Shown here piece after piece: positions 5,601-49,619 of a DNA stretch of 64,000 nt. This stretch comes from Sphyrna mokarran (Eukaryota). The notes below the pieces were generated by a model. The model worked only from the letters and a program-made list of their open reading frames with translations, did not search any database and was not told the DNA's origin. A program made the translations under genes and the position numbers. The stretch spans positions 620,001 to 684,000 of the forward strand of contig JAGIQG010000043.1 of the NCBI GenBank assembly GCA_024679065.1. The letters are read 5' to 3'. The first letter of the stretch is position 1. Each line of letters begins with the position of its first letter.

Positions 5601-8600
5601 GTGCCAATATACCCCTTCTCAAGTAAGGAGACCAAAACATGTACACAGTACTCCAGATTTGGTCTCACCAGCATCTTATACATATGTAACATAATCTCGC
5701 AGTTTTTAACTCCACCTATCTAGAATGAAGGACAAAATTCAATTTGCCTCTTAATGACCTGCTGCACTCATAAACCAACTCCTCAGATCCCTGCACAAGG
5801 ATACCCAGGTCCCGCTGCACAGCAGCATACTGTATTGATTTTATTTGTGATTTAAATAGTAGCCCATTTTCTTGTTATTCCTACCAAAATGGATGACCTC
5901 ATATTTACCAATACTGTACTCCATCTGCCAGACCCTCACCCATTCACTTAGATTATTTATATTCCTTCTGTAAAATTTCAGCGTTCTCTGCACACTCTGC
6001 TCTTCCACTCATCTTAGTGTCATCTGCGAACATTGACACACCACACTTGGTCCCCAACTCCAAATCATCTATGTAAATCATAATCAATTGTAGTCCCAAC
6101 ACTGATCCATGATGTACACCACTAGCCACTGATCGCCAAGCAGAAAACAAGAAAAAAGCCATTTACCCCCACTGTTTGCTTTCTGTTAGTTAACCAATCC
6201 TCTATCCATGCTAATACGTTACCTGTAACACTGGGCAAATTATATTATGTAATAGTCTTTTGTGCAGCAATTTGTCAAATGTCTTCTGGAAATTCACATA
6301 CACCATATTCACAGGTTCCAGATTGTCCACTGCACACCTAATGTTCTCAAAGGATACCAACAAATTAGACACATATGACCTGCCCTTCATGAACTTACGC
6401 TGTATCTAACCAATGGGACAATTTTACCTCCGGATGTTTCGCTATTTCTTTCTTGATGAGAGATTCAAGCATTTTCTCTACTACAAAGGTTAAGATAACC
6501 ATCCTTTAGTTACCCGCATTTTTGACTAGGTTTTTAAGAAAAAATGCATCACATTTGCTGTTTTCGAATCTGTGGAAAACACCCCAGAGTCCACCGAATT
6601 TCTGTATATTACCACTAATGAATTGCTATTTCTCCCGCCATCTCTTTCAATACTCTGGAATGCATTTCGACAGGACCAGGAGACTTGTCTACCTTTAGAT
6701 CCTTTAACTTGCGCAACACTACCTCTTTCGTGATAATGATAGTTTCTAGGTTTTCACCTGCCATAGCCTTCATGTCACCAGTTTTTGGCATGTTATTTGT
6801 GTCTTCAAATGTGAAAACCAATACAAAATACCTGTCCAATGCCTCATTCCCAGTTGTTAGATCCCCTTTTTCGTCCTCTGAAGGACAAATGTTTACATTC
6901 AACACTCTTTTTCGTGTCATATATTTGTAGGAACTTTTGATATCTTGTTTTATATTCTGAGCTAGTTTTTTTTTAGAGCAAGACAGCACGGGAAACAGGC
7001 CCTTCGGCCCAACGAGCCCCCGCCGCCGTCATAAATATATAGTAACAATTCCATTATCCTATCCTAATTTTAGGTTATTCCTAATATGGAAGAGTCTCAA
7101 TGTAGGGACAATTTGTTTCCCAATCAGCCTAAGAGCGAATTTTTGGGATGTGGGAGGAAACCGGAGCGCCTGGAGAAAACCCACGCAACCACGGGGAGAA
7201 CGCACAAACTCCCGCAGACACCGGCCCAATTCCAAGTGTCTGCACAGCTACAGCGATGGTCACTGAGCTGTCATGGTGCCCTTCAGATGGTCCAGATAAA
7301 GCACTCATTTACGACATGAAGCACCAGGCAACCCATGAGTCGACATCCAAGAGCTGTCCTCGCACCACCTGCCGAATGCATGCTCCTTGTTGGTCAAGTA
7401 TGGACCGAATTACCTGTGGAAAAAAAGCCATAGTTAAACAGTCCTACTATATCCCTCTATTTGCATAACGCTCATGTGGCTGTCCAAGAGATGCTTAAAC
7501 AGCCCTAGCGTGCCTGCTCCCACCACCTTACTCGGCAGTACATTCCACACCCCCCACTACCCTTTGTGTGAAAAACTGCCCTCTAATATTCGTCTTATAC
7601 CTATCCCCCCTCACCCTAAGGCCGTGACCCCTCGTCCTATCCATTTCTGAAGGTGGAAAAAGTTTACCACCATTTACTCTATCTATACCCCTTATAATCT
7701 TATACACCTCTATTAGATCCCCTGTAAGCCGACGTCTTTCAAGGGAAAACAACCCCAGTCTATTTAATCGTTCCTCATAAGACAGTCCTTCCATACCAGG
7801 CAGCATCCTGGTAAACCTCCTCTGCACTCTCTCCAAGGACTCCACATCCTTCTGATAGTATGGTGACCAGAACTGGACGCAGTATTCCAACTGAGGCCTA
7901 ACCAACGTTCTATACAATTACAACATCAAACTCCTACTCTTGTATTCTATACCCTTTTCAATGAAAGCTAACATTCTATACGCTTTCTTTATCACCTTCT
8001 CCACCTGTGAAGACACCATCAGAGACTTGTGAACTTGCACCCCCAAGTCTCTCTGCGTCTCTATACTTCGAATAGTTTTACCTTTTATCCTATAACTCTC
8101 TTCTACATTTTTCCGGCCAAAATGCATCACCTCGCATTTATCCGGATTAAATTCCATTTGCCATCTATCTGCCCAGTCTACCAACCTATCTATGTCCAGG
8201 CATAGCAATAATGTCCAGGCATAACAATACAACAGTCTACCAACCTATCTATGTCCAGGCAATACAACAGGACATAGATAGGTTGGTAGACTGGGCAGAT
8301 AGATGGCAAATGGGATTTAATCCGGTAAAATGCGAGGTGATGCATTTTGGCCGGAAAAATGTAGAAGAAAGGGCTTAGTGTGAGGTGGGGTAAGGTATAA
8401 TTTGGATACCATTCAAGGAAGCTACTGGGGATACATTCTATGAACTTCTCCTCAAGGCTGTCTTGACCGAATTGGTTGGGCCAATTGATTTGTAGATTAA
8501 CTTCCCTTGTGATAATTGTTGTACCATTTTTTTAAGTGTCTCAGTTATTTCTTTGTTTATTTTTCGCCCCACCATGATGTCATTATTTGATGGCCTATGG

Positions 8601-40937: not shown

Positions 40938-43660
40938 TGCAGATAGGGAAGCAGATGTAGAAATAACAGTATTGTCGTGATGGGAGATTTCAATTTCCCA
41001 AACATCGACTGGAATATCCCAAGGGTAAGGGGTTTGGATGGTGTGGAGTTTGTTAGATGTGTTCAGGAAGGTTTCCTGACACAGCACGTGGAAAAGCCCA
41101 CGAGAGGAGAGGCTGTACTTGACCTGATGCTTGCTAATGAGCCAGGGCAGGTGTCAGATCTCACGGTAGGTGAGCATCTTGAGAATGGACATCATAATTC
41201 TATCTCTTTCACGGTAGCGATGGAAAGAGATAGGATCAGGCAGGCTAGGAAGGTGTATGTCTGGAGTAAGGGGAAATATGAAAACATTAGGCAGGTAACT
41301 GGACGTATGAACTGGAAGGAGGTGTTCTTGGGGAGGAGTACAGAAGGAAAGTGCCAGTTTTTCAAGGAATGTTTGCCTGGGGCACTGCAAGACAACGTTC
41401 CGAGGAGTCAAGGAGGTTCTGGTAGAACGTGGGAACCGTGGTGCACGAAGGTAGCGGTGAACCTAGTTGGGAAGAAAAAAAAAGTATATAAAAGGTTCAG
41501 AGAGCTAGAGGGTGTTAGAAATCTAGAGGAGAATAAGGTGTGTAGAAGGGAACTTAAGAGGGAAATTAGGAGAGCCAGAAGAGGTCATGAGAAAGCCTTG
41601 GCAGGTAAGATTAAGGAGAATCCCAAGGCCTTCGACAAATATGTGAAAGTAAAAGGATGAGAAGGGAAGGGATAAGGCCTATAAAAGGTGAAGTGGGAAA
41701 AGTCTGTGTGAATCCGGAAGAAATGGCAGACGTGCTTAACGAGTACTTTGCCTCGGTATTCATAGTGGAAAGTGAACTGGGAGATTGCACTGCAGGTTTG
41801 AGGCACACGGAAAAGATTGAGTATGTGGATGTTGGGAAAGAGGATGTGTTAATAGAACATAGAACATAGAACATTACAGCGCAGAACAGGGCCTTCGGAC
41901 TTCGATGTTGCGCCGACCAATTCTGAAAAAAAAAGCAATGACCCTCCAAACTAAACCATTCCCTTCTCTTCCATAAACTTATCAACTAACCTCTTAAACG
42001 CCACCAAACTTGGCGCATCTACAACTGTCGCAGGCAGGGCATTCCACTCCCTAACCACCCTCTGGGTAAAGGTTAGAATTTAACAGGTCATGTTAGACCT
42101 GTTAAATTCTATCAAGATAGACAAGTTGCCGGGACCGGATGGGATGTACCCCAGGTTATTGTGGGAGGTGAGGGAAGTGGCTGCAGAGCCCCTGGCGATG
42201 ATCTTTGCATCGTCAATGTAAATGGGAGAGGTTCCAGAGGATTGGAGGATTGCGGATATGGTTCCTATCTTTAATAAAGGGAACAGGGATAGTCCAGGAA
42301 ATTACTGACCGGAGAGTTTGACTTCCGTGGTTGGTAATCTGATGGAGAGGCTTCTGAGGGATAAGATATATAAACATTTGAAGAAGTTTGGACTGATTAG
42401 AAATAGTCAGCATGGTTTTGTCAAGGGCAGGTCATGCCTGACGAGCCTAGTTGACTTCTTCGAAAAAGTGACTGAACACATTGACGAAGGAAGAGCGGTG
42501 GACGTAGTGTACATGGACTTTAGTAAGACGTTTGATACGGTCCCCCATGCAAGGCTTCTGGAGAAGGTGAGAGGGCATGGGATCCAACGGGCTTTGGCCT
42601 CGTGGATCCAGAACTGGCTTGCCGGCAGAAGGCAGAGAGTGGTTGTGGATGGGTCTTCTTCTGCATGGAGGCCGGTAACCAGTGGAGTGCCCCAAGGAAC
42701 TGTTCTGGGACCCCTGCTGTTTGTCATTTTCATAAATGACCTGGATGAGGAAGCGGAGGGATGGGTTAGCAAGTTCGCCGACGATGCAAAGGTCGGTGGT
42801 GTTGTGGATGGTCTGGAGGGATGCCAAAAGTTGCAGCGGGACATAGACAGGATGCAAGAGTGGGCGGAGAAGTGGCAAATGGACTTCAATGCACATAAAT
42901 GTGCAGTGTCCATTTTGGCAGGAATAATGGAATGAAGGAGTACAATATAAGGGGTAGGAGTCTTAGCTGTGTTGTAGAGCAGAAGGATCTCGAGGTCCGG
43001 GTCCATAGGACTCTTCAATCGGCCTCGCAGGTGGAGGAAGTGGTCAAGAAGGCGTACGGTGTACTGGCCTTCATTAATCGTGGAATAGATTTTCAGAGTC
43101 AGGAGGTAATGATGCAGCTCTATAAGACTCTTGTCAGACCCCAGTTGGAGTATTGTGCGCTGTTCTGGTCGCCTAATTATAGGAAGGATGTAGAGGCTAT
43201 TGAGAGATTTCAGAGGAGATTTACAAGGATGCTGCCTGGATTGGGAGGCAGGCCTTATGAAGATAGGTTGAGGGAGCTGGGACTCTTCTCACTGGAGAGA
43301 CGTAGGTTGAGAGGCGACCTGATAGAGGTTTATAAAATGTTGAGAGGAATAGATAGGGTGGACTCTCAGAGACTATTTCCCCGAGCTGAAATGGTCACTA
43401 CGAGAGGACACAGATTTAAGGTGCAGGGAAGCAAATACAAAGGAGATGTCAGGGGTAGGTTTTCCACTCAGAGGGTGGTGAGTGAATGGAACCGACTGCC
43501 GTCGGAGGTTGTTGAGGCAAACTCACTGGGGTCTTTTAAGAGACTTCTGGATGAGTATATGGAAACAAATAGGATAGGAGATTATAGATAGGTCTGTGGA
43601 TTGGTAGATGTGGTTGGCGCAACTCGTGGGCCGAAGGGGTGTTTGTGCTGTATTGTTCTA
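40938..43660 (+). mobile_element. CR1-B LINE ORF2 (endonuclease C-terminus and RT), with a nested CR1-A 3' end at ~41850-42070
   Basis: [37 protein letters not shown]; frameshifted; absent from the right arm. Confidence 0.93.
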
Positions 43661-46002
43661 TAGAACATAGAACATAGAACAATACAGCACAGAACAGGCC
43701 CTTCGGCCTTCGATGTTGTGCCGACCAAAATAAAAAGCAATGCCCTCCAAACTAAACCATTCCCTTCTCTTCCATATACTTATCAATTAACCTCTTAAAC
43801 GCCACCAAACTTGGCGCATCTACAACAGCTGCAGGCAGGGCATTCCCATCCCTAATCACTCTTTGAGTAAAGAACCTACCTCTGATATCCGTCCTATAAC
43901 TCATACCCCTTAATTTAAAGTTGTGTCCCCTCGTGCTAGCTTTTTCCATCCTAGGAAAAAGGCTATCACTGTCCACCCTATCCAAACCTCTAATTATCTT
44001 ATATGTTTCAATAAGATCCCCCTTAGCCGCCTCCTTTCTAACGAAAACAACCTCAAATCCTTCAACCTCTCTTCATAGGACCTGCCCTCCATACCAGGCA
44101 ACATCCTGGTAAACCTCCTCTGTACCTCTCCAATGCCTCCACATCTTTCTTATAATGTGGCGACCAGAACTGCACACAATACTCCAAGTGCGGCCGCACT
44201 AGAGTTTTGTACAGCTGCAACATGATGCTGCGGCTCCTAAATTCAATCCCCTACCAATAAAAGCTAAGACTCCATATGCCTTCTTAACAACTTTATCCAC
44301 TTGACTGCCTACTTTCAGGATCTATTGACACATACACCAAGATCCTTCTGTTCCTCAACACTATTAAGAGCCCTACCATTAGCCCTATACTCTACACATT
44401 TATTTTTCCTGCCAAAGTGCATTACCTCACACTTTTCCACATTAAACTCCATTTGCCACCTCTCGGCCCAGCTCTGCAACTTGTCCAAGTCACTCTGTAA
44501 ACTAAAACACCCCTCTCCACTATCTACCACACCACCAACTTTAGTATCATCTGCAAATTTACTGATCCATCCCTCAATACCCTCATCCAGATCATTTATA
44601 AAAATTACAAACAGCAGGGGCCCCAAAACAGACCCCTGAGGCACACCACTCGTCACCGAACTCCACGATTAATATCTCCCATCAACCACCACCCTCTGTC
44701 TTCTATCTGCCAGCCAATTTCTAATCCAATTAGCTAAATCACCCTCTATTCCACACATCTGCATTTTCTGTAGAAGTCTTCCATGGGCCACCTTATCAAA
44801 AGCCTTACTAAAGTCCATATATACTACATCAACCGCCTTACCCCCATCCACCTCTCTGGTCACTTTCTCAAAAAACTCAATGAGGTTAGTAAGGCATGAC
44901 CTACCCTTCACGAAACCATGCTGACTATCCCCAATCAATTCATTTCTCTCTAAATAACTATAAATCCTATCCCTAATAATTCTCTCCAATACCTTGCCCA
45001 CCACAGAAGTAAGACTCACTGGCCTATAATTCCCAGGAAGGTCTCTCTTCCCCTTCTTAAACAATGGGACCACATTCGCCATCCTCCAGTCCTCCGGAAC
45101 CACACCCGTAACCAACGAGGACCTGAAGATCAGAGCCAGAGGCTCTGCAATCTCCTCTCTTGCCTCCCAGAGAATCCTAGGGTAAATCCCGTCCGGCCCA
45201 GGGGACTTATCCAACTTCAAACCCTCGAGAATTTCTAACACATCCTCCCTATCTACTACAATACTCCCCAATTTGCAACCCTGTACCTCAGTGCTCTCCA
45301 CAGCTACATTTCCAGCACTCTGCGTGAATACCGAAGAGAAATATTTATTCAGTGCCTCGCCAATCTCTTCAGGCTCCACGCACAACTTCCCACTGCTATC
45401 TATGACTGGCCCTAATCTTGCCCTAACCAATCTTCTATTCTTAACATATCGAAAGAAAGCTTTAGGATTCTCCTTAATCCTATCAGCCAACATCTTCTCG
45501 TGTCCCCTCTTAGCTCTCCTCAATTCACTTTTTACCTCCTTCCTAGCTAATCTATAGCTATCCATTGCACTACCTGAGCCTTCAAGCCTCATCCTGACAT
45601 AAGCCTCCTTTTTCTTCTTAACCAGCAAATCAACTCTTTTCGTACACCAAGGCTCTCTTACTCGTCCATTTCCTCCCTGCCTGACAGGGACATACTTATC
45701 AAGGACTCTCAGCAGCTGCTCCTTGAATAAGCACCACATTCCAGATGTTCCCAGTCCCTGTAGTTCCCTAGTCCAATCTACGCACCCTAATTCTCTCCTG
45801 ATGGCCTCATAATTACCCTTCCCCCAGCTATAACTACAGCCCCCAGCTTCATGCCTATCCCTGTCCATCACTAAGGTGAACGTAACCGAATTGTGGTCAC
45901 TATCACCAAAATGTTCACTAACTTCCAAGCCTAACACCTGGTCTGGCTCATTGCCCAGCACCAAATCCAATGTAGCCTCACCTCTAGTTGGCCTATCTAC
46001 AT
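43661..46002 (-). mobile_element. Young CR1-A LINE inserted into the tail of the preceding element
   Basis: Long ORF2 segment (most of ORF 44669-46126) with DKSPGPDG, NYRPVSLTS, DFSKAFD; a few stops and frameshifts. Confidence 0.95.
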
Positions 46003-46370
46003 ATTTAATCCGGAAAAATGCGAGGTGATGCATTTTGGCCGGAAAAATGTAGAAGAGAATTATAGGATAAAAGGTAAAACTATACGGAGCATAGAGACGC
46101 AGAGAGACTTGGGGGTGCAGGTTCACAAGTCTCTGAAGGTGTCCTCATTGGAAAAAGTTTACCTCCATTTACTCCATCTACACCCCTTACAATCTTACAC
46201 ACCTCCATGAGATCCCCTCCAAGCCGACGTCCCCCAAGGGAAAAGAACCCCAGTCCACCCAACCGTTCCCCACAGGACAGTCCCTCCACACCAGGCAGCA
46301 TCCCGGCAAACCTCCTCCGCACTCTCTCCAAGGACCCCACATCCCTCCGATAGCACGGAGACCAGAACTG
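46003..46370. mobile_element. Chimeric CR1-C fragments at the 5' junction (46003-46147 +; 46150-46370 -, A-to-G hypermutated)
   Basis: Homologous to 8008-8152 and 7655-7875 respectively. Confidence 0.85.
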
Positions 46371-47308
46371 TTCTATGTAACTTCATACTGATAAAACTAA
46401 CGCATGTGATGGATAAGTAGTTACGAGATATTCTGAGGAGCAGGATCTACTGGCATTTGGAGACGCCAGAATTAATTAGAAACAGTCAGCATGTGTTTCA
46501 GGGAACAAAGAATAAAGAACCAAACAGCACGGCAAACAGGTCCTTCGGCCCCAATAGCCTGTGCCGCCACCTCGATGTTCCCACTTCCACCCATGATCCC
46601 TGTTTATGTTTATAAAAATCTGCATTAGAACCAAATTTGCGAGACAATTTAGGGGAATTTATTTTGCCACTCAGCCTAAGAGCACATCTTTGGGATGTGG
46701 GAGGAAACCAGAACACACGGAGAGAACTTACGTAAGCACAGGGAGAATGTGAAAACTCTCACAGACATAGACCCAAATCCATGTATCTGCACAGCACAGC
46801 GATAGTCATTGAGCTGTCGTGTTTCAGAGTGGAATTTCTCATGAATTGGAATGAAATTTTTGAAGATGTTACCAGGAAAGTAGATGAAGTCAGCGCAGTC
46901 ACAGATGTCGACATGGACAAGCGCACAGCCTTACAAGGTACCACATGGTAGGTTTTTACATAAGATTAAATATCATGCAATCCAGGATGAGGTAGCCAAT
47001 TGGATGCAAAGTTTGCTTCACGGCAGAAGACAATCAGTGGTTGCAGATGTTTTTATTATATCTCAAACTGGAGGTCAGTGACCAGTGATAAGCTGGGCAA
47101 GAGCTGGATCTGCTGATTTTTTAATCTAACAATCATTTGAATGAGAAGTCTGTGTGATGATAGAACGATGGAACAGCTTTGAACATAACTGCATATTCAT
47201 TGTGTTGTGCAAACCTGCATGTTTTGACCTCTGTACATAAAAAAGACACAGTGTCGACCTTAAATGCAATTTCCTTTATTCTAAAGCTGCATAAACAACA
47301 TTAAATAC

Positions 47309-47750
47309 AAAGAACAAAACAGCACGGGAAACAGGCCCTACGGCCCAACGAGCCCGCGCCATCACCCCGATGTTCCCACCTCTACCCGGGATCCCTGTCC
47401 ATGTTTATAGATCTATGGATTAAAAACCAAATTTGAGACAATTTAGGGAGAATTTGTTTTGCCAATTAGCCTAACAGCACATCTTTGGGATGTGGGAGGA
47501 AACCGGAGCTCCAGGGGAAAACCCACGCAAGTACGTGGAGAATGCGCAAACTCCCACAGGCACAGGCCCAAATCCATGTATCTGCACACCGCAGCGATAG
47601 TCACTGAGCTATCGTGTTGCCCATCAGATGGTCCAGGTCAAGCATACACTAACGACGTGAAGCAGTAGGATACTCTCGAGAAAGATCCAAGAGCAGTCCT
47701 CTCACGACCCATCGCGTGTATGCCCCTCGTTAGACAACAAGGTGGACCAA
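47309..47750 (-). mobile_element. CR1-C 3' UTR insertion (left arm only)
   Basis: Empty site at ~48485; possible target duplication aaatac/aaatgc. Confidence 0.75.
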
Positions 47751-49619
47751 ATGCTTGCAATGCATCAATAAAATACTCACTGTTTTTTACCTGAAGGTAA
47801 GATTCCCACTTGCAATTAAAATATATCCAACTGTTTGTTGTCTCATTCAATGAGCCTTTTGGTCTCCTCTTTTTCCAGGTTGTTGTCTCCCTTTGTGTTT
47901 TTGGTCCCAGAGTTCTTCACTCTGCCCTCTGAACCAGTGTTAGTGTGATTAAAACTTTAAATTTTTCCTTGTAACCATAGAACATTACAGCACAGTGCAG
48001 GCCCTTCGGCCCTCGATGCTGTGCCCAATCGCAAGATCAAGCTATCACCTTAACTTGGTGTTGTGAGAATACTTGCTCTCCTTAGCAGGGAGGAGTATTT
48101 TGCATGCTTTCGGAGCCTGTGTTCCTTATCTGCACTTATATCCTTATGCACTTAAGGAGCTGATACAATAAGTCCTGGGGTGACGAATACAAACACTGTG
48201 GCTCTAGTTGATTGGTCGAATTGATGGATGCATTCGTGATTTTTGGTCAATGCAATAGTTGGTTACAATGGAAAAAATGAAAGTTTGCACTACACTAACA
48301 CTGGTTCAGAGGGCAGCGTGAAGAAGCCGTGGACCAAGCACACAAAGGGAGAAAACAACCTGGAAAAAGAGGATACCAAATGGCTAATTGAATGCGACAA
48401 CAAACAACTGGGTATATTTTAATTGCAAGTGGAAATCTTACTTTCAGCTAAATAACAGTGAGTATTTTATAGAGACATTGCAAGTATTTACTGTTGTTTA
48501 TGCAGCTTTAGAATAAAGGAAATTGCATTTAAAGTCGACACTGTGTCTTTTTTGTACAAAGGTCAAAACATGCAGGTTTGCACAACACAATGAATATGCA
48601 GTTATGTTCAAAGCTGTTCCATCTTTCTATCAGCACACAGACTTTTCATTCAAATGATTGATAGATTAAGAAAAAAACAGCAGATCCAGCTCTTGTCCAG
48701 CTCATCACTGGTCACTGGCCTCCAGTTTGAGATATAATAAAAACCTCTGCCACCCCTGATTGTCTTCTGTGGTGAAGCAAACTTTGCATCCAATTGGCTA
48801 CCTCATCGTGGATTGCATGATATTTAACCTTATGCAAAAACCTACCATGTGGTACCTTGTCAAGGCCGTGCGCATGTCCATGTCGACATCTGTCAACTGC
48901 GCTGCCCTCATCTACCTTCCTGGTTACATCTTCAAAAATTTCATTCCAACTCATGAGAAATTCCACTCTGAATCAGGACAGCTCAGTGACTATCACCGTA
49001 CTGTGCAGATACATGGATGTGGGTCTGTGTCTGTGGGAGTTTTCACATTCTCCCCGTGTTTGCGTGGGTTTTCTGCGGGTGCTCCGGTTTCCTCCCACAA
49101 CCCTTAGATGTGCTCTTAGGCTGAGTGGCAAAATAAATTCCCCCTAAATTGTCTCGCAAATTTGGTTCCAATGCAGATTTCTATAAACATAGATAGGGAT
49201 CATGGGTGGAAGTGGGAACATCGAGGTGGCGGCGTGGGCTGGTGGAGCCGAAGGACCTGTTTCCCGTGCTGTTTTGTTCTTTATTATTTGTTCTTCGAAC
49301 CCCATGGTGACTGTTTCTAATCAATTCTGGCGTCGCCAAATGCCAGTAGATCCAATTGCTCAGAATATCTTCTAACTACTCATCAATCACATGTGATAGA
49401 TTTATCAGTCTGAAGTTCCTAGGCTTTTCCCTGCAACCTTTTTTAAACAAACACACAGCGTTTGTGAAATGTCGGTCTTCACAGTGGAAGGCACAAATAA
49501 CATGTCACAAATTAAGGTCAGGAAGGATATAGCAGGTGAGAAGGTGAAACTATCGTTATCACGAAGAAGGTAATGTTGGGCAAGTTAATGGGCTTAAAGA
49601 TAGACAAGTGTCCAAGTTC

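What the first reader, a model, noticed from the sequence alone, without database searches (positions are those of the whole stretch)
46150..46370. A-to-G hypermutated CR1 fragment: a probable genomic fossil of ADAR hyper-editing
Seen: ungapped 221-nt alignment to the sister copy at 7655-7875 gives 32 differences; 26 are T-to-C on + (A-to-G on the element's sense strand) and none are C-to-T. Conserved [23 protein letters not shown] becomes ERVRRRFAGMLPGVEGLSCGERL, so this copy is the derived one. About 22 of the 26 sites have a non-G 5' neighbour on the sense strand, while GA runs such as GGAGAGAG are spared. The adjacent fragment 46003-46147 is not hypermutated. Known: ADAR hyper-edits dsRNA, disfavours a 5' G, and inosine is copied as G; APOBEC and CpG decay give the opposite change. 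Inference: an edited LINE RNA was captured by an RT and fixed in the germline, recording ADAR action on retroelements.
Basis: partly seen in the sequence, partly recalled or inferred. Interest (0 to 1): 0.8.

Follow-up and report, generated by a model that had tools for sequence, protein, structure and literature searches.

The report
ADAR-edited LINE RNA fixed in genome
A piece of a jumping gene carries a one-stranded burst of A-to-G changes, as do at least 23 other copies in this genome, most likely because the RNA-editing enzyme ADAR edited the RNA before it was reverse-transcribed into the genome, which would make RNA edits heritable.

Summary
Observation confirmed. Against 30 family copies the fragment differs at 24 of 222 sites, 23 of them A>G on the element's sense strand; the adjacent same-family piece is unmutated. 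A DNA-run contig carries the alleles. It is not unique: motif searches gave 20 sense- and 4 antisense-edited CR1-like loci beside 83,224 unedited motif matches. Pooled sense tracts: 1,312 A>G versus 199 other changes; edited share by 5' neighbour U 0.80, A 0.71, C 0.41, G 0.20; 3' G favoured: the ADAR pattern. Two edited insertions have unedited parent loci; in one, edits sit in the two pairing arms (64/172 A) and spare unpaired parts (3/269). The fragment itself looks like a template jump at the 5' end of one young LINE insertion, but the other 19 sense copies are ordinary tail-bearing insertions, so edits do not concentrate at 5' junctions. Precedent exists in cultured human cells (PMC11702581); I found no paper on germline-fixed cases. 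This scan noted similar cases before in other genomes (unchecked notes).

The parts
46149..46370 (-). Hyper-edited piece of the ORF2 C-terminal region of a young CR1-like family (here family B); 23 A>G on the sense (-) strand, first at 46354, last at 46175; 19 of 73 codons altered relative to copy L010
46003..46147 (+). Unedited piece of the same family B, in the opposite orientation; in intact copies it lies 133 nt upstream of the edited piece. The junction with the edited piece occurs once in the genome
43662..46002 (-). Young 5'-truncated CR1-like LINE (family Y) with RT domain and (GTTCTAT)n tail at the low end; not edited (21 mixed differences in 2,159 scored positions, 6 of them T>C)
43654..43661 (+). 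Left copy of TGTTCTAT: tail of an older + strand element, split by the cassette (target-site duplication of 4-8 nt, or insertion between two tail units)
46369..46376 (+). Right copy of TGTTCTAT; its first 2 nt are shared with the end of the edited piece (microhomology)
42114..43661 (+). Older CR1-like element into whose tail the cassette 43662-46368 inserted (left limit approximate)
7654..7875 (-).

Best explanation
The fragment is a strand-specific A-to-G hypermutated piece of CR1-like LINE sequence that was most likely edited as double-stranded RNA by an ADAR and then copied into genomic DNA by the LINE reverse transcriptase. Shown: 23 private A>G and 1 other change; unedited neighbours of the same age; alleles present in a DNA-run contig; 23 further loci with the same signature; two with unedited parent loci. 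Inferred steps: (1) LINE-containing RNA pairs with an inverted copy, in cis or with an antisense read-through transcript (the genome has >83,000 near-identical copies in both orientations); (2) ADAR converts about 40% of A to I; (3) during target-primed reverse transcription of a family-Y RNA the RT stops at 46002, jumps to other templates (first the unedited antisense piece, then the edited sense RNA), puts C opposite I, and the cassette is sealed at the split tail; (4) this happened in the germ line or early embryo and was inherited. Most other cases are simpler: the edited LINE RNA was itself the template from its tail onward.
For: Purity: 1,312 A>G vs 199 other substitutions (A>T 11, A>C 9) in 10,265 nt of tract at 20 sense loci, motif positions excluded. 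Context: 5' U 527/660, A 448/627, C 150/367, G 185/909 (p=2e-123); 3' G 619/1,072 highest (p=2e-8); UAG 230/261; same order in 4 antisense loci; G depleted upstream and enriched downstream is the ADAR motif (PMC4365171 passages). dsRNA dependence: L109 4785-6326 is a 1,542-nt copy of parent L126, which holds two inverted CR1 copies; A>G 34/81 and 30/91 in the pairing arms, 3/233 and 0/36 outside them. Second pair: L106 vs parent on C927, 73/148 A edited in the repeat vs 8/385 in the co-copied flanks. Editing precedes insertion: parents are unedited; in L115 an edited copy (44 changes) sits inside an opposite-strand young copy whose two halves show 0; here the 2.3-kb Y part is unedited. Controls: G>A motif 1 hit, not clustered; 0 of 30 motif-unedited copies exceed 4 A>G in 300 flanking nt. 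DNA support: X1 contig 46200-46530, 1 other letter, depth 10.5. ADAR-family deaminase exons on 7 contigs. Precedent: PMC11702581.
Against: No enzyme, RNA or inosine was observed; ADAR is inferred from the signature. X1 is contigs, is only guessed to be DNA and may be the assembly's own sample; raw reads were not available. A second locus, L069, was not confirmed by X1: only 44-46 nt pieces, and no contig across its junctions. No parent or pairing partner was found for the finding itself (junction unique), and the origin of the inverted unedited piece is unexplained. For most sense-edited copies the partner strand is unknown. In the finding alone the 3' G preference is not significant (p=0.60). 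L033 is weak (10 A>G vs 9 other in the flank) and L079 failed the threshold. In HeLa cells L1 RNA showed no editing (PMC5224506). Loci were found with motifs that require edits in U/C contexts, so those motif positions were left out of the context counts, but the set is not a random sample.
Confidence: 0.88

Rival explanations
1. An error-prone DNA synthesis step (a mutator state of the element's RT under dNTP imbalance, or a Y-family polymerase such as Pol eta or iota in second-strand synthesis) put G opposite T during insertion.
For: Edits are tied to retro-insertions; 5' U/A sites are hit most, which resembles the WA preference of Pol eta (recalled).
Against: In both parent-daughter pairs the edits stop at repeat-arm boundaries inside one continuous cDNA; almost no A>T or A>C (11 and 9 vs 1,312); 5' C sites are edited twice as often as 5' G sites (p=2e-13); tracts reach 1.9 kb with 63% of A changed.
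Confidence: 0.04
2. Adenine was deaminated on DNA (the cDNA strand of the RNA:DNA hybrid, or an R-loop), or edited RNA converted an existing locus after insertion.
For: 4 loci are edited on the antisense strand; ADAR action on DNA in hybrids is reported (recalled).
Against: cDNA deamination predicts T>C on the element's sense strand; 20 of 24 loci show the opposite. Three of the 4 antisense cases are compound or read-through insertions in which the antisense copy lies on the template strand; L103 is unresolved. Post-insertion conversion should hit neighbouring young copies and parents, which are unedited.
Confidence: 0.04
3. Assembly or polishing artefact (edited RNA reads or sequencing error written into the assembly).
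For: L069 was not confirmed in X1; only contigs, not raw reads, could be laid.
Against: X1 contig joins the edited piece to unique flank with 1 other letter in 331; edited daughters lie at other loci than their parents with novel junctions and ordinary later divergence; PMC2873906 names G-to-A, not A-to-G, as the common trace error.
Confidence: 0.02
4. A GC-rich or CpG-rich subfamily, CpG decay in the sister, APOBEC on the sister, or TpA-specific two-strand DNA hypermutation.
For: One candidate (L102) did prove to be a CA>CG subfamily effect; 15 of 19 antisense-motif loci were background.
Against: The G alleles are private; only 4 of 26 sites are CpG; each tract is one-stranded and includes AA, CA and GA sites.
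Confidence: 0.02

Closest known systems
ADAR-edited mRNA copied into DNA by L1 in cultured human cells (PMC11702581, preprint; passages read)
   Same: Clustered T>C/A>G in a retro-inserted sequence, restricted to inverted repeats of the template RNA, attributed to ADAR; same logic as the L126/L109 pair.
   Different: There: 3 of 235 induced pseudogene insertions, somatic, inverted Alu in host 3' UTRs. Here: natural, inherited copies; the LINE's own coding RNA is the main target; tracts up to 1.9 kb; dozens of loci.
APOBEC DNA editing of LTR retrotransposons fixed in vertebrate genomes (PMC4866542; passages read)
   Same: Strand-biased, clustered, single-type hypermutation of retroelements preserved in reference genomes with an enzyme-specific context.
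   Different: G>A on ssDNA in LTR elements; that screen covered LTR elements and reports mismatch clusters other than G>A and C>T as very rare. Here A>G, non-LTR, dsRNA-limited.
ADAR hyper-edited RNA (PMC4365171; passages read)
   Same: Dense A>G clusters, G depleted 5' and enriched 3', in repeat-derived dsRNA.
   Different: Seen in RNA against an unedited genome; here the edits are in the genome.
A-to-G hypermutation of avian retroviruses recorded in proviral DNA (Hajjar and Linial; RAV-1 LTR variant). Recalled, and named in scan notes e1-7810917 and e1-8036428; not read
   Same: Edited RNA fixed in DNA by an RT.
   Different: Exogenous retrovirus in culture, single clones; not a LINE, not inherited.

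Membership tests
ADAR hyper-editing signature | Nearly pure, clustered A>G on one strand | tested here: met
   23 of 24 here; 1,312 of 1,511 in 20 loci
ADAR hyper-editing signature | 5' G depleted (U>A>C>G) | tested here: met
   5/25 vs 17/32 here; 0.80/0.71/0.41/0.20 pooled
ADAR hyper-editing signature | 3' G enriched | tested here: met
   pooled 619/1,072, p=2e-8; not significant in the finding alone
ADAR hyper-editing signature | Confined to double-stranded RNA | tested here: met
   met at L109/L126 (64/172 paired vs 3/269 unpaired); repeat-limited at L106; no partner identified for the finding itself
ADAR hyper-editing signature | Dependence on ADAR catalysis; inosine in RNA | not testable with these tools
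   only presence of A_deamin exons shown
Non-LTR (TPRT) insertion | RT domain, 5' truncation, 3' tail, short target-site duplication | tested here: met
   RVT_1 E 8.5e-18 and 2.2e-14; tail and split 8-mer; 19 of 19 other sense loci end within 22 nt of the family-Y 3' end; clear duplications were not found at most of those loci
CR1 clade | RT phylogeny with named CR1 elements | not tested
   no named reference elements held; the label CR1-like rests on recalled ORF2 motifs and the short microsatellite tail
APOBEC DNA editing | G>A on the element's sense strand | tested here: not met
   change is A>G; G>A control motif gave 1 unclustered hit
TpA-specific two-strand DNA hypermutation | TA>TG and TA>CA in one tract | tested here: not met
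   T>C 28 vs A>G 1,312; AA, CA, GA sites also edited

The most novel reading that the evidence does not exclude
ADAR hyper-editing of LINE RNA in the germ line is a routine, heritable mutagen of non-LTR retrotransposons: roughly 1 in 2,000 insertions of the active family carries RNA edits, so the genome holds a datable fossil record of which RNAs were double-stranded and edited in germ cells, the RNA-level twin of APOBEC footprints, and catalytic ADAR activity disables LINE progeny in vivo.
Probability: 0.6. Interest if true: 0.87.

Novelty: new variant of a known kind. Interest (0 to 1): 0.78.

Why it matters
Whether RNA edits are ever written back into the heritable genome, and whether ADAR acts catalytically on LINE RNA in vivo, are open; a HeLa study found L1 RNA unedited (PMC5224506) and genome screens concentrated on APOBEC G>A in LTR elements (PMC4866542). 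Here both become directly countable from genome sequence alone, with parent-daughter pairs as built-in controls. Such copies also give ADAR site preferences and germline dsRNA maps for species with no RNA data, and they can confound RNA-editing calls because edited reads map to pre-edited genomic copies.

Tried and rejected
DNA search for family Y 5' region in the genome returned nothing (common words skipped), so no count came from it. L102 (45 antisense A>G) rejected: changes are at 5' C (32/93 and 31/123; 5' G 0), a CpG subfamily effect. 15 of 19 distinct antisense-motif loci and L079 fell under the threshold of 8 A>G in 300 flanking nt. No source locus for the finding's A/B junction. X1 did not confirm L069. 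X2 (RNA is only a guess) has 45-52 nt contigs matching L069 stretches with 4-8 edited sites at 0-1 other letters: a weak hint that this family's RNA is edited, not used as evidence. Classic twin priming does not fit the finding (pieces are joined 3' end to 3' end). For L106 twin priming and a jump onto a fresh tail both fit; the edited strand is the template strand in both. Automated target-site search gave mostly chance matches. Carmi et al. 2011 was not held. Ten paper searches found no report of germline-fixed ADAR-edited LINE copies; the library lacks most subscription papers, and no supplement was read (Fig. S8 of PMC11702581 not seen).

Full report
1. Observation. The ungapped 221-nt comparison of 46150-46370 with 7655-7875 gives 32 differences, 26 T>C and no C>T on +. 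A genome search with the fragment scored 40 of 2,268 candidates; the best other copy is 91% identical, so the edited form is single-copy among them. The family is young: the other 29 copies differ from the column letters at 1-4 of 222 sites, the sister at 8. Against one natural copy, 22 of 58 sense-strand A are G; with the background rate of 118/9,033 this has a binomial tail of 1.3e-26. By 5' neighbour the edited share is U 11/17, A 4/11, C 2/4, G 5/25 (p=0.014), and 19 of 73 codons are changed.

2. Is it in DNA? One run (X1, guessed DNA, contigs only) holds a 331-nt contig over 46200-46530 with 1 other letter at depth 10.5; it covers 19 of the 23 edited sites and runs into unique flank. This argues against an RNA-polishing artefact, but X1 may be the assembly's own sample. 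I laid 4 of 23 listed runs. A second test on locus L069 was negative or uninformative: only short pieces, no bridging contig.

3. Anatomy. A young 5'-truncated LINE (family Y, minus strand, 43662-46002; RVT_1 hits; 97-99% to other window copies) is followed by an unedited family-B piece in sense orientation on + (46003-46147, identical to L010 and L017) and then by the edited family-B piece in antisense orientation on +. The whole cassette splits the tail of an older element: TGTTCTAT stands at 43654-43661 and 46369-46376. The Y part has 21 mixed differences in 2,159 scored positions, so all three parts are of similar, young age, and only one is edited. The simplest reading (inferred) is one TPRT event with two template jumps at the 5' end; the edited piece has the same polarity as the Y RNA. 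The A/B junction is unique in the genome, so no parent could be compared. Why the middle piece is inverted is not explained.

4. Genome-wide. A motif that needs three edits gave 7 loci; the unedited motif gave 83,224. A second motif (at least 3 of 5 edits) gave 16. Antisense versions gave 1 and 19; a G>A control gave 1. With a threshold of 8 A>G in the 300 nt beside the motif, 20 of 21 distinct sense loci, 4 of 19 distinct antisense loci, 0 of 1 G>A locus and 0 of 30 motif-unedited copies pass (three duplicates dropped). The 30 copies are a background measure only, as they were picked for an unedited motif. In the 20 sense tracts (10,265 nt, motif positions left out) there are 1,312 A>G and 199 other substitutions; edited shares by 5' neighbour are U 527/660, A 448/627, C 150/367, G 185/909, and by 3' neighbour G 619/1,072 is highest; leaving out the finding changes nothing. 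This is the ADAR motif as described in PMC4365171 (passages) and PMC2873906 (passages). Capture-recapture on the two motifs (6 and 15 family-Y loci, 2 shared) suggests 36-45 edited copies over this region, about 1 in 2,000 copies; this is rough and probably low, and covers one region of one family group.

5. Tests of mechanism. (a) A junction search found the parent of an edited compound insertion: L109 4785-6326 copies L126 406-1947, which holds two inverted LINE copies; folding the parent gives 282 long-range pairs; A>G stands at 34/81 and 30/91 in the pairing arms and at 3/233 and 0/36 outside them. (b) A flank search found the parent of L106: 73/148 A edited inside the antisense LINE copy, 8/385 in the co-copied flanks, with 7-9 other substitutions per segment; its partner strand is not identified. 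(c) In L115 an edited copy with 44 changes lies inside an opposite-strand young copy whose halves have none. So edits follow RNA pairing, not position in the cDNA, and were made before insertion. Ordinary later divergence in many edited copies indicates inheritance over many generations (inferred). ADAR-family deaminase exons are present on 7 contigs.

6. Rivals. Polymerase or RT error does not explain arm-limited tracts or the near absence of A>T and A>C. Deamination of the cDNA predicts the other strand; 3 of the 4 antisense cases are read-through or compound insertions with the edited strand as template, 1 is unresolved. Conversion after insertion should touch parents and neighbours. Subfamily variation explained one candidate, L102, not the finding.

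7. What is known. PMC11702581 reports 3 of 235 L1-mediated pseudogene insertions in cultured human cells with clustered T>C limited to inverted Alu (passages): the route is shown, somatically. PMC4866542 documents APOBEC G>A footprints in LTR elements and calls other mismatch clusters very rare (passages). PMC5224506 found no editing in over 2.5 kb of L1 RNA in HeLa cells (passages). PMC2873906 saw no A>G excess in high-quality DNA traces of human and Xenopus (passages). PMC5974252 and PMC3747384 (passages) added nothing on fixed edits. Ten searches found no paper on inherited ADAR-edited LINE copies; Carmi 2011 was not held, subscription papers are mostly missing and no supplements were read. 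The scan's own unchecked notes list like cases in other genomes; I saw them after forming and testing my reading, and they are not independent proof. The names CR1-like and the retroviral precedent are recalled.

8. Verdict. Real, not chance, not a subfamily. Best explanation: ADAR-hyper-edited LINE RNA captured by a LINE RT and inherited (0.88). A new variant of a known kind: the route is known from cell culture and retroviruses, the natural, repeated, heritable form in a non-LTR family with parent-daughter proof of dsRNA dependence was not found in print. Interest 0.78.

Noticed in passing
window 46379-47308 vs 48484-49417, and 47749-47977 vs 48260-48489: Large inverted duplication (90% and 87% identity) directly beside the insertion; any transcript across it could form a long hairpin.
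   Followed up: no
window 8110-8370: The sister copy has a fold-back (inverted repeat of its own 5' end) with a short tandem duplication in the loop.
   Followed up: no
L109 4378-6330 (G000 C1548) and L126 406-1947 (G000 C771): Edited 1.5-kb retrocopy of a locus with two inverted LINE copies, followed by an unedited piece that starts at a fresh LINE tail: a likely template jump onto an RNA 3' end.
   Followed up: yes
L106 4235-6317 (G000 C335) and G000 C927 77,693-79,817: 1.8-kb retrocopy of unique flanking DNA with an edited antisense LINE copy inside; shows 5' read-through transduction by these elements.
   Followed up: yes
L111 2474-4409 (G000 C1326): Most heavily edited copy: 317 of 504 scored A changed over 1.9 kb.
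   Followed up: partly
L112 3495-3647 (G000 C1215): Short older antisense fragment with 11 A>G in 140 scored nt, about 1 kb from an edited copy; possibly another edited piece.
   Followed up: partly
L010, 3' of the matched piece; window 7300-7450: Family B does not end in the family-Y microsatellite tail but runs on into sequence related to a short repeat found many times in the window, so it may be a composite element.
   Followed up: no
genome-wide: One 27-nt LINE motif occurs unchanged 83,224 times, about once per 33 kb: a very large recent burst.
   Followed up: no
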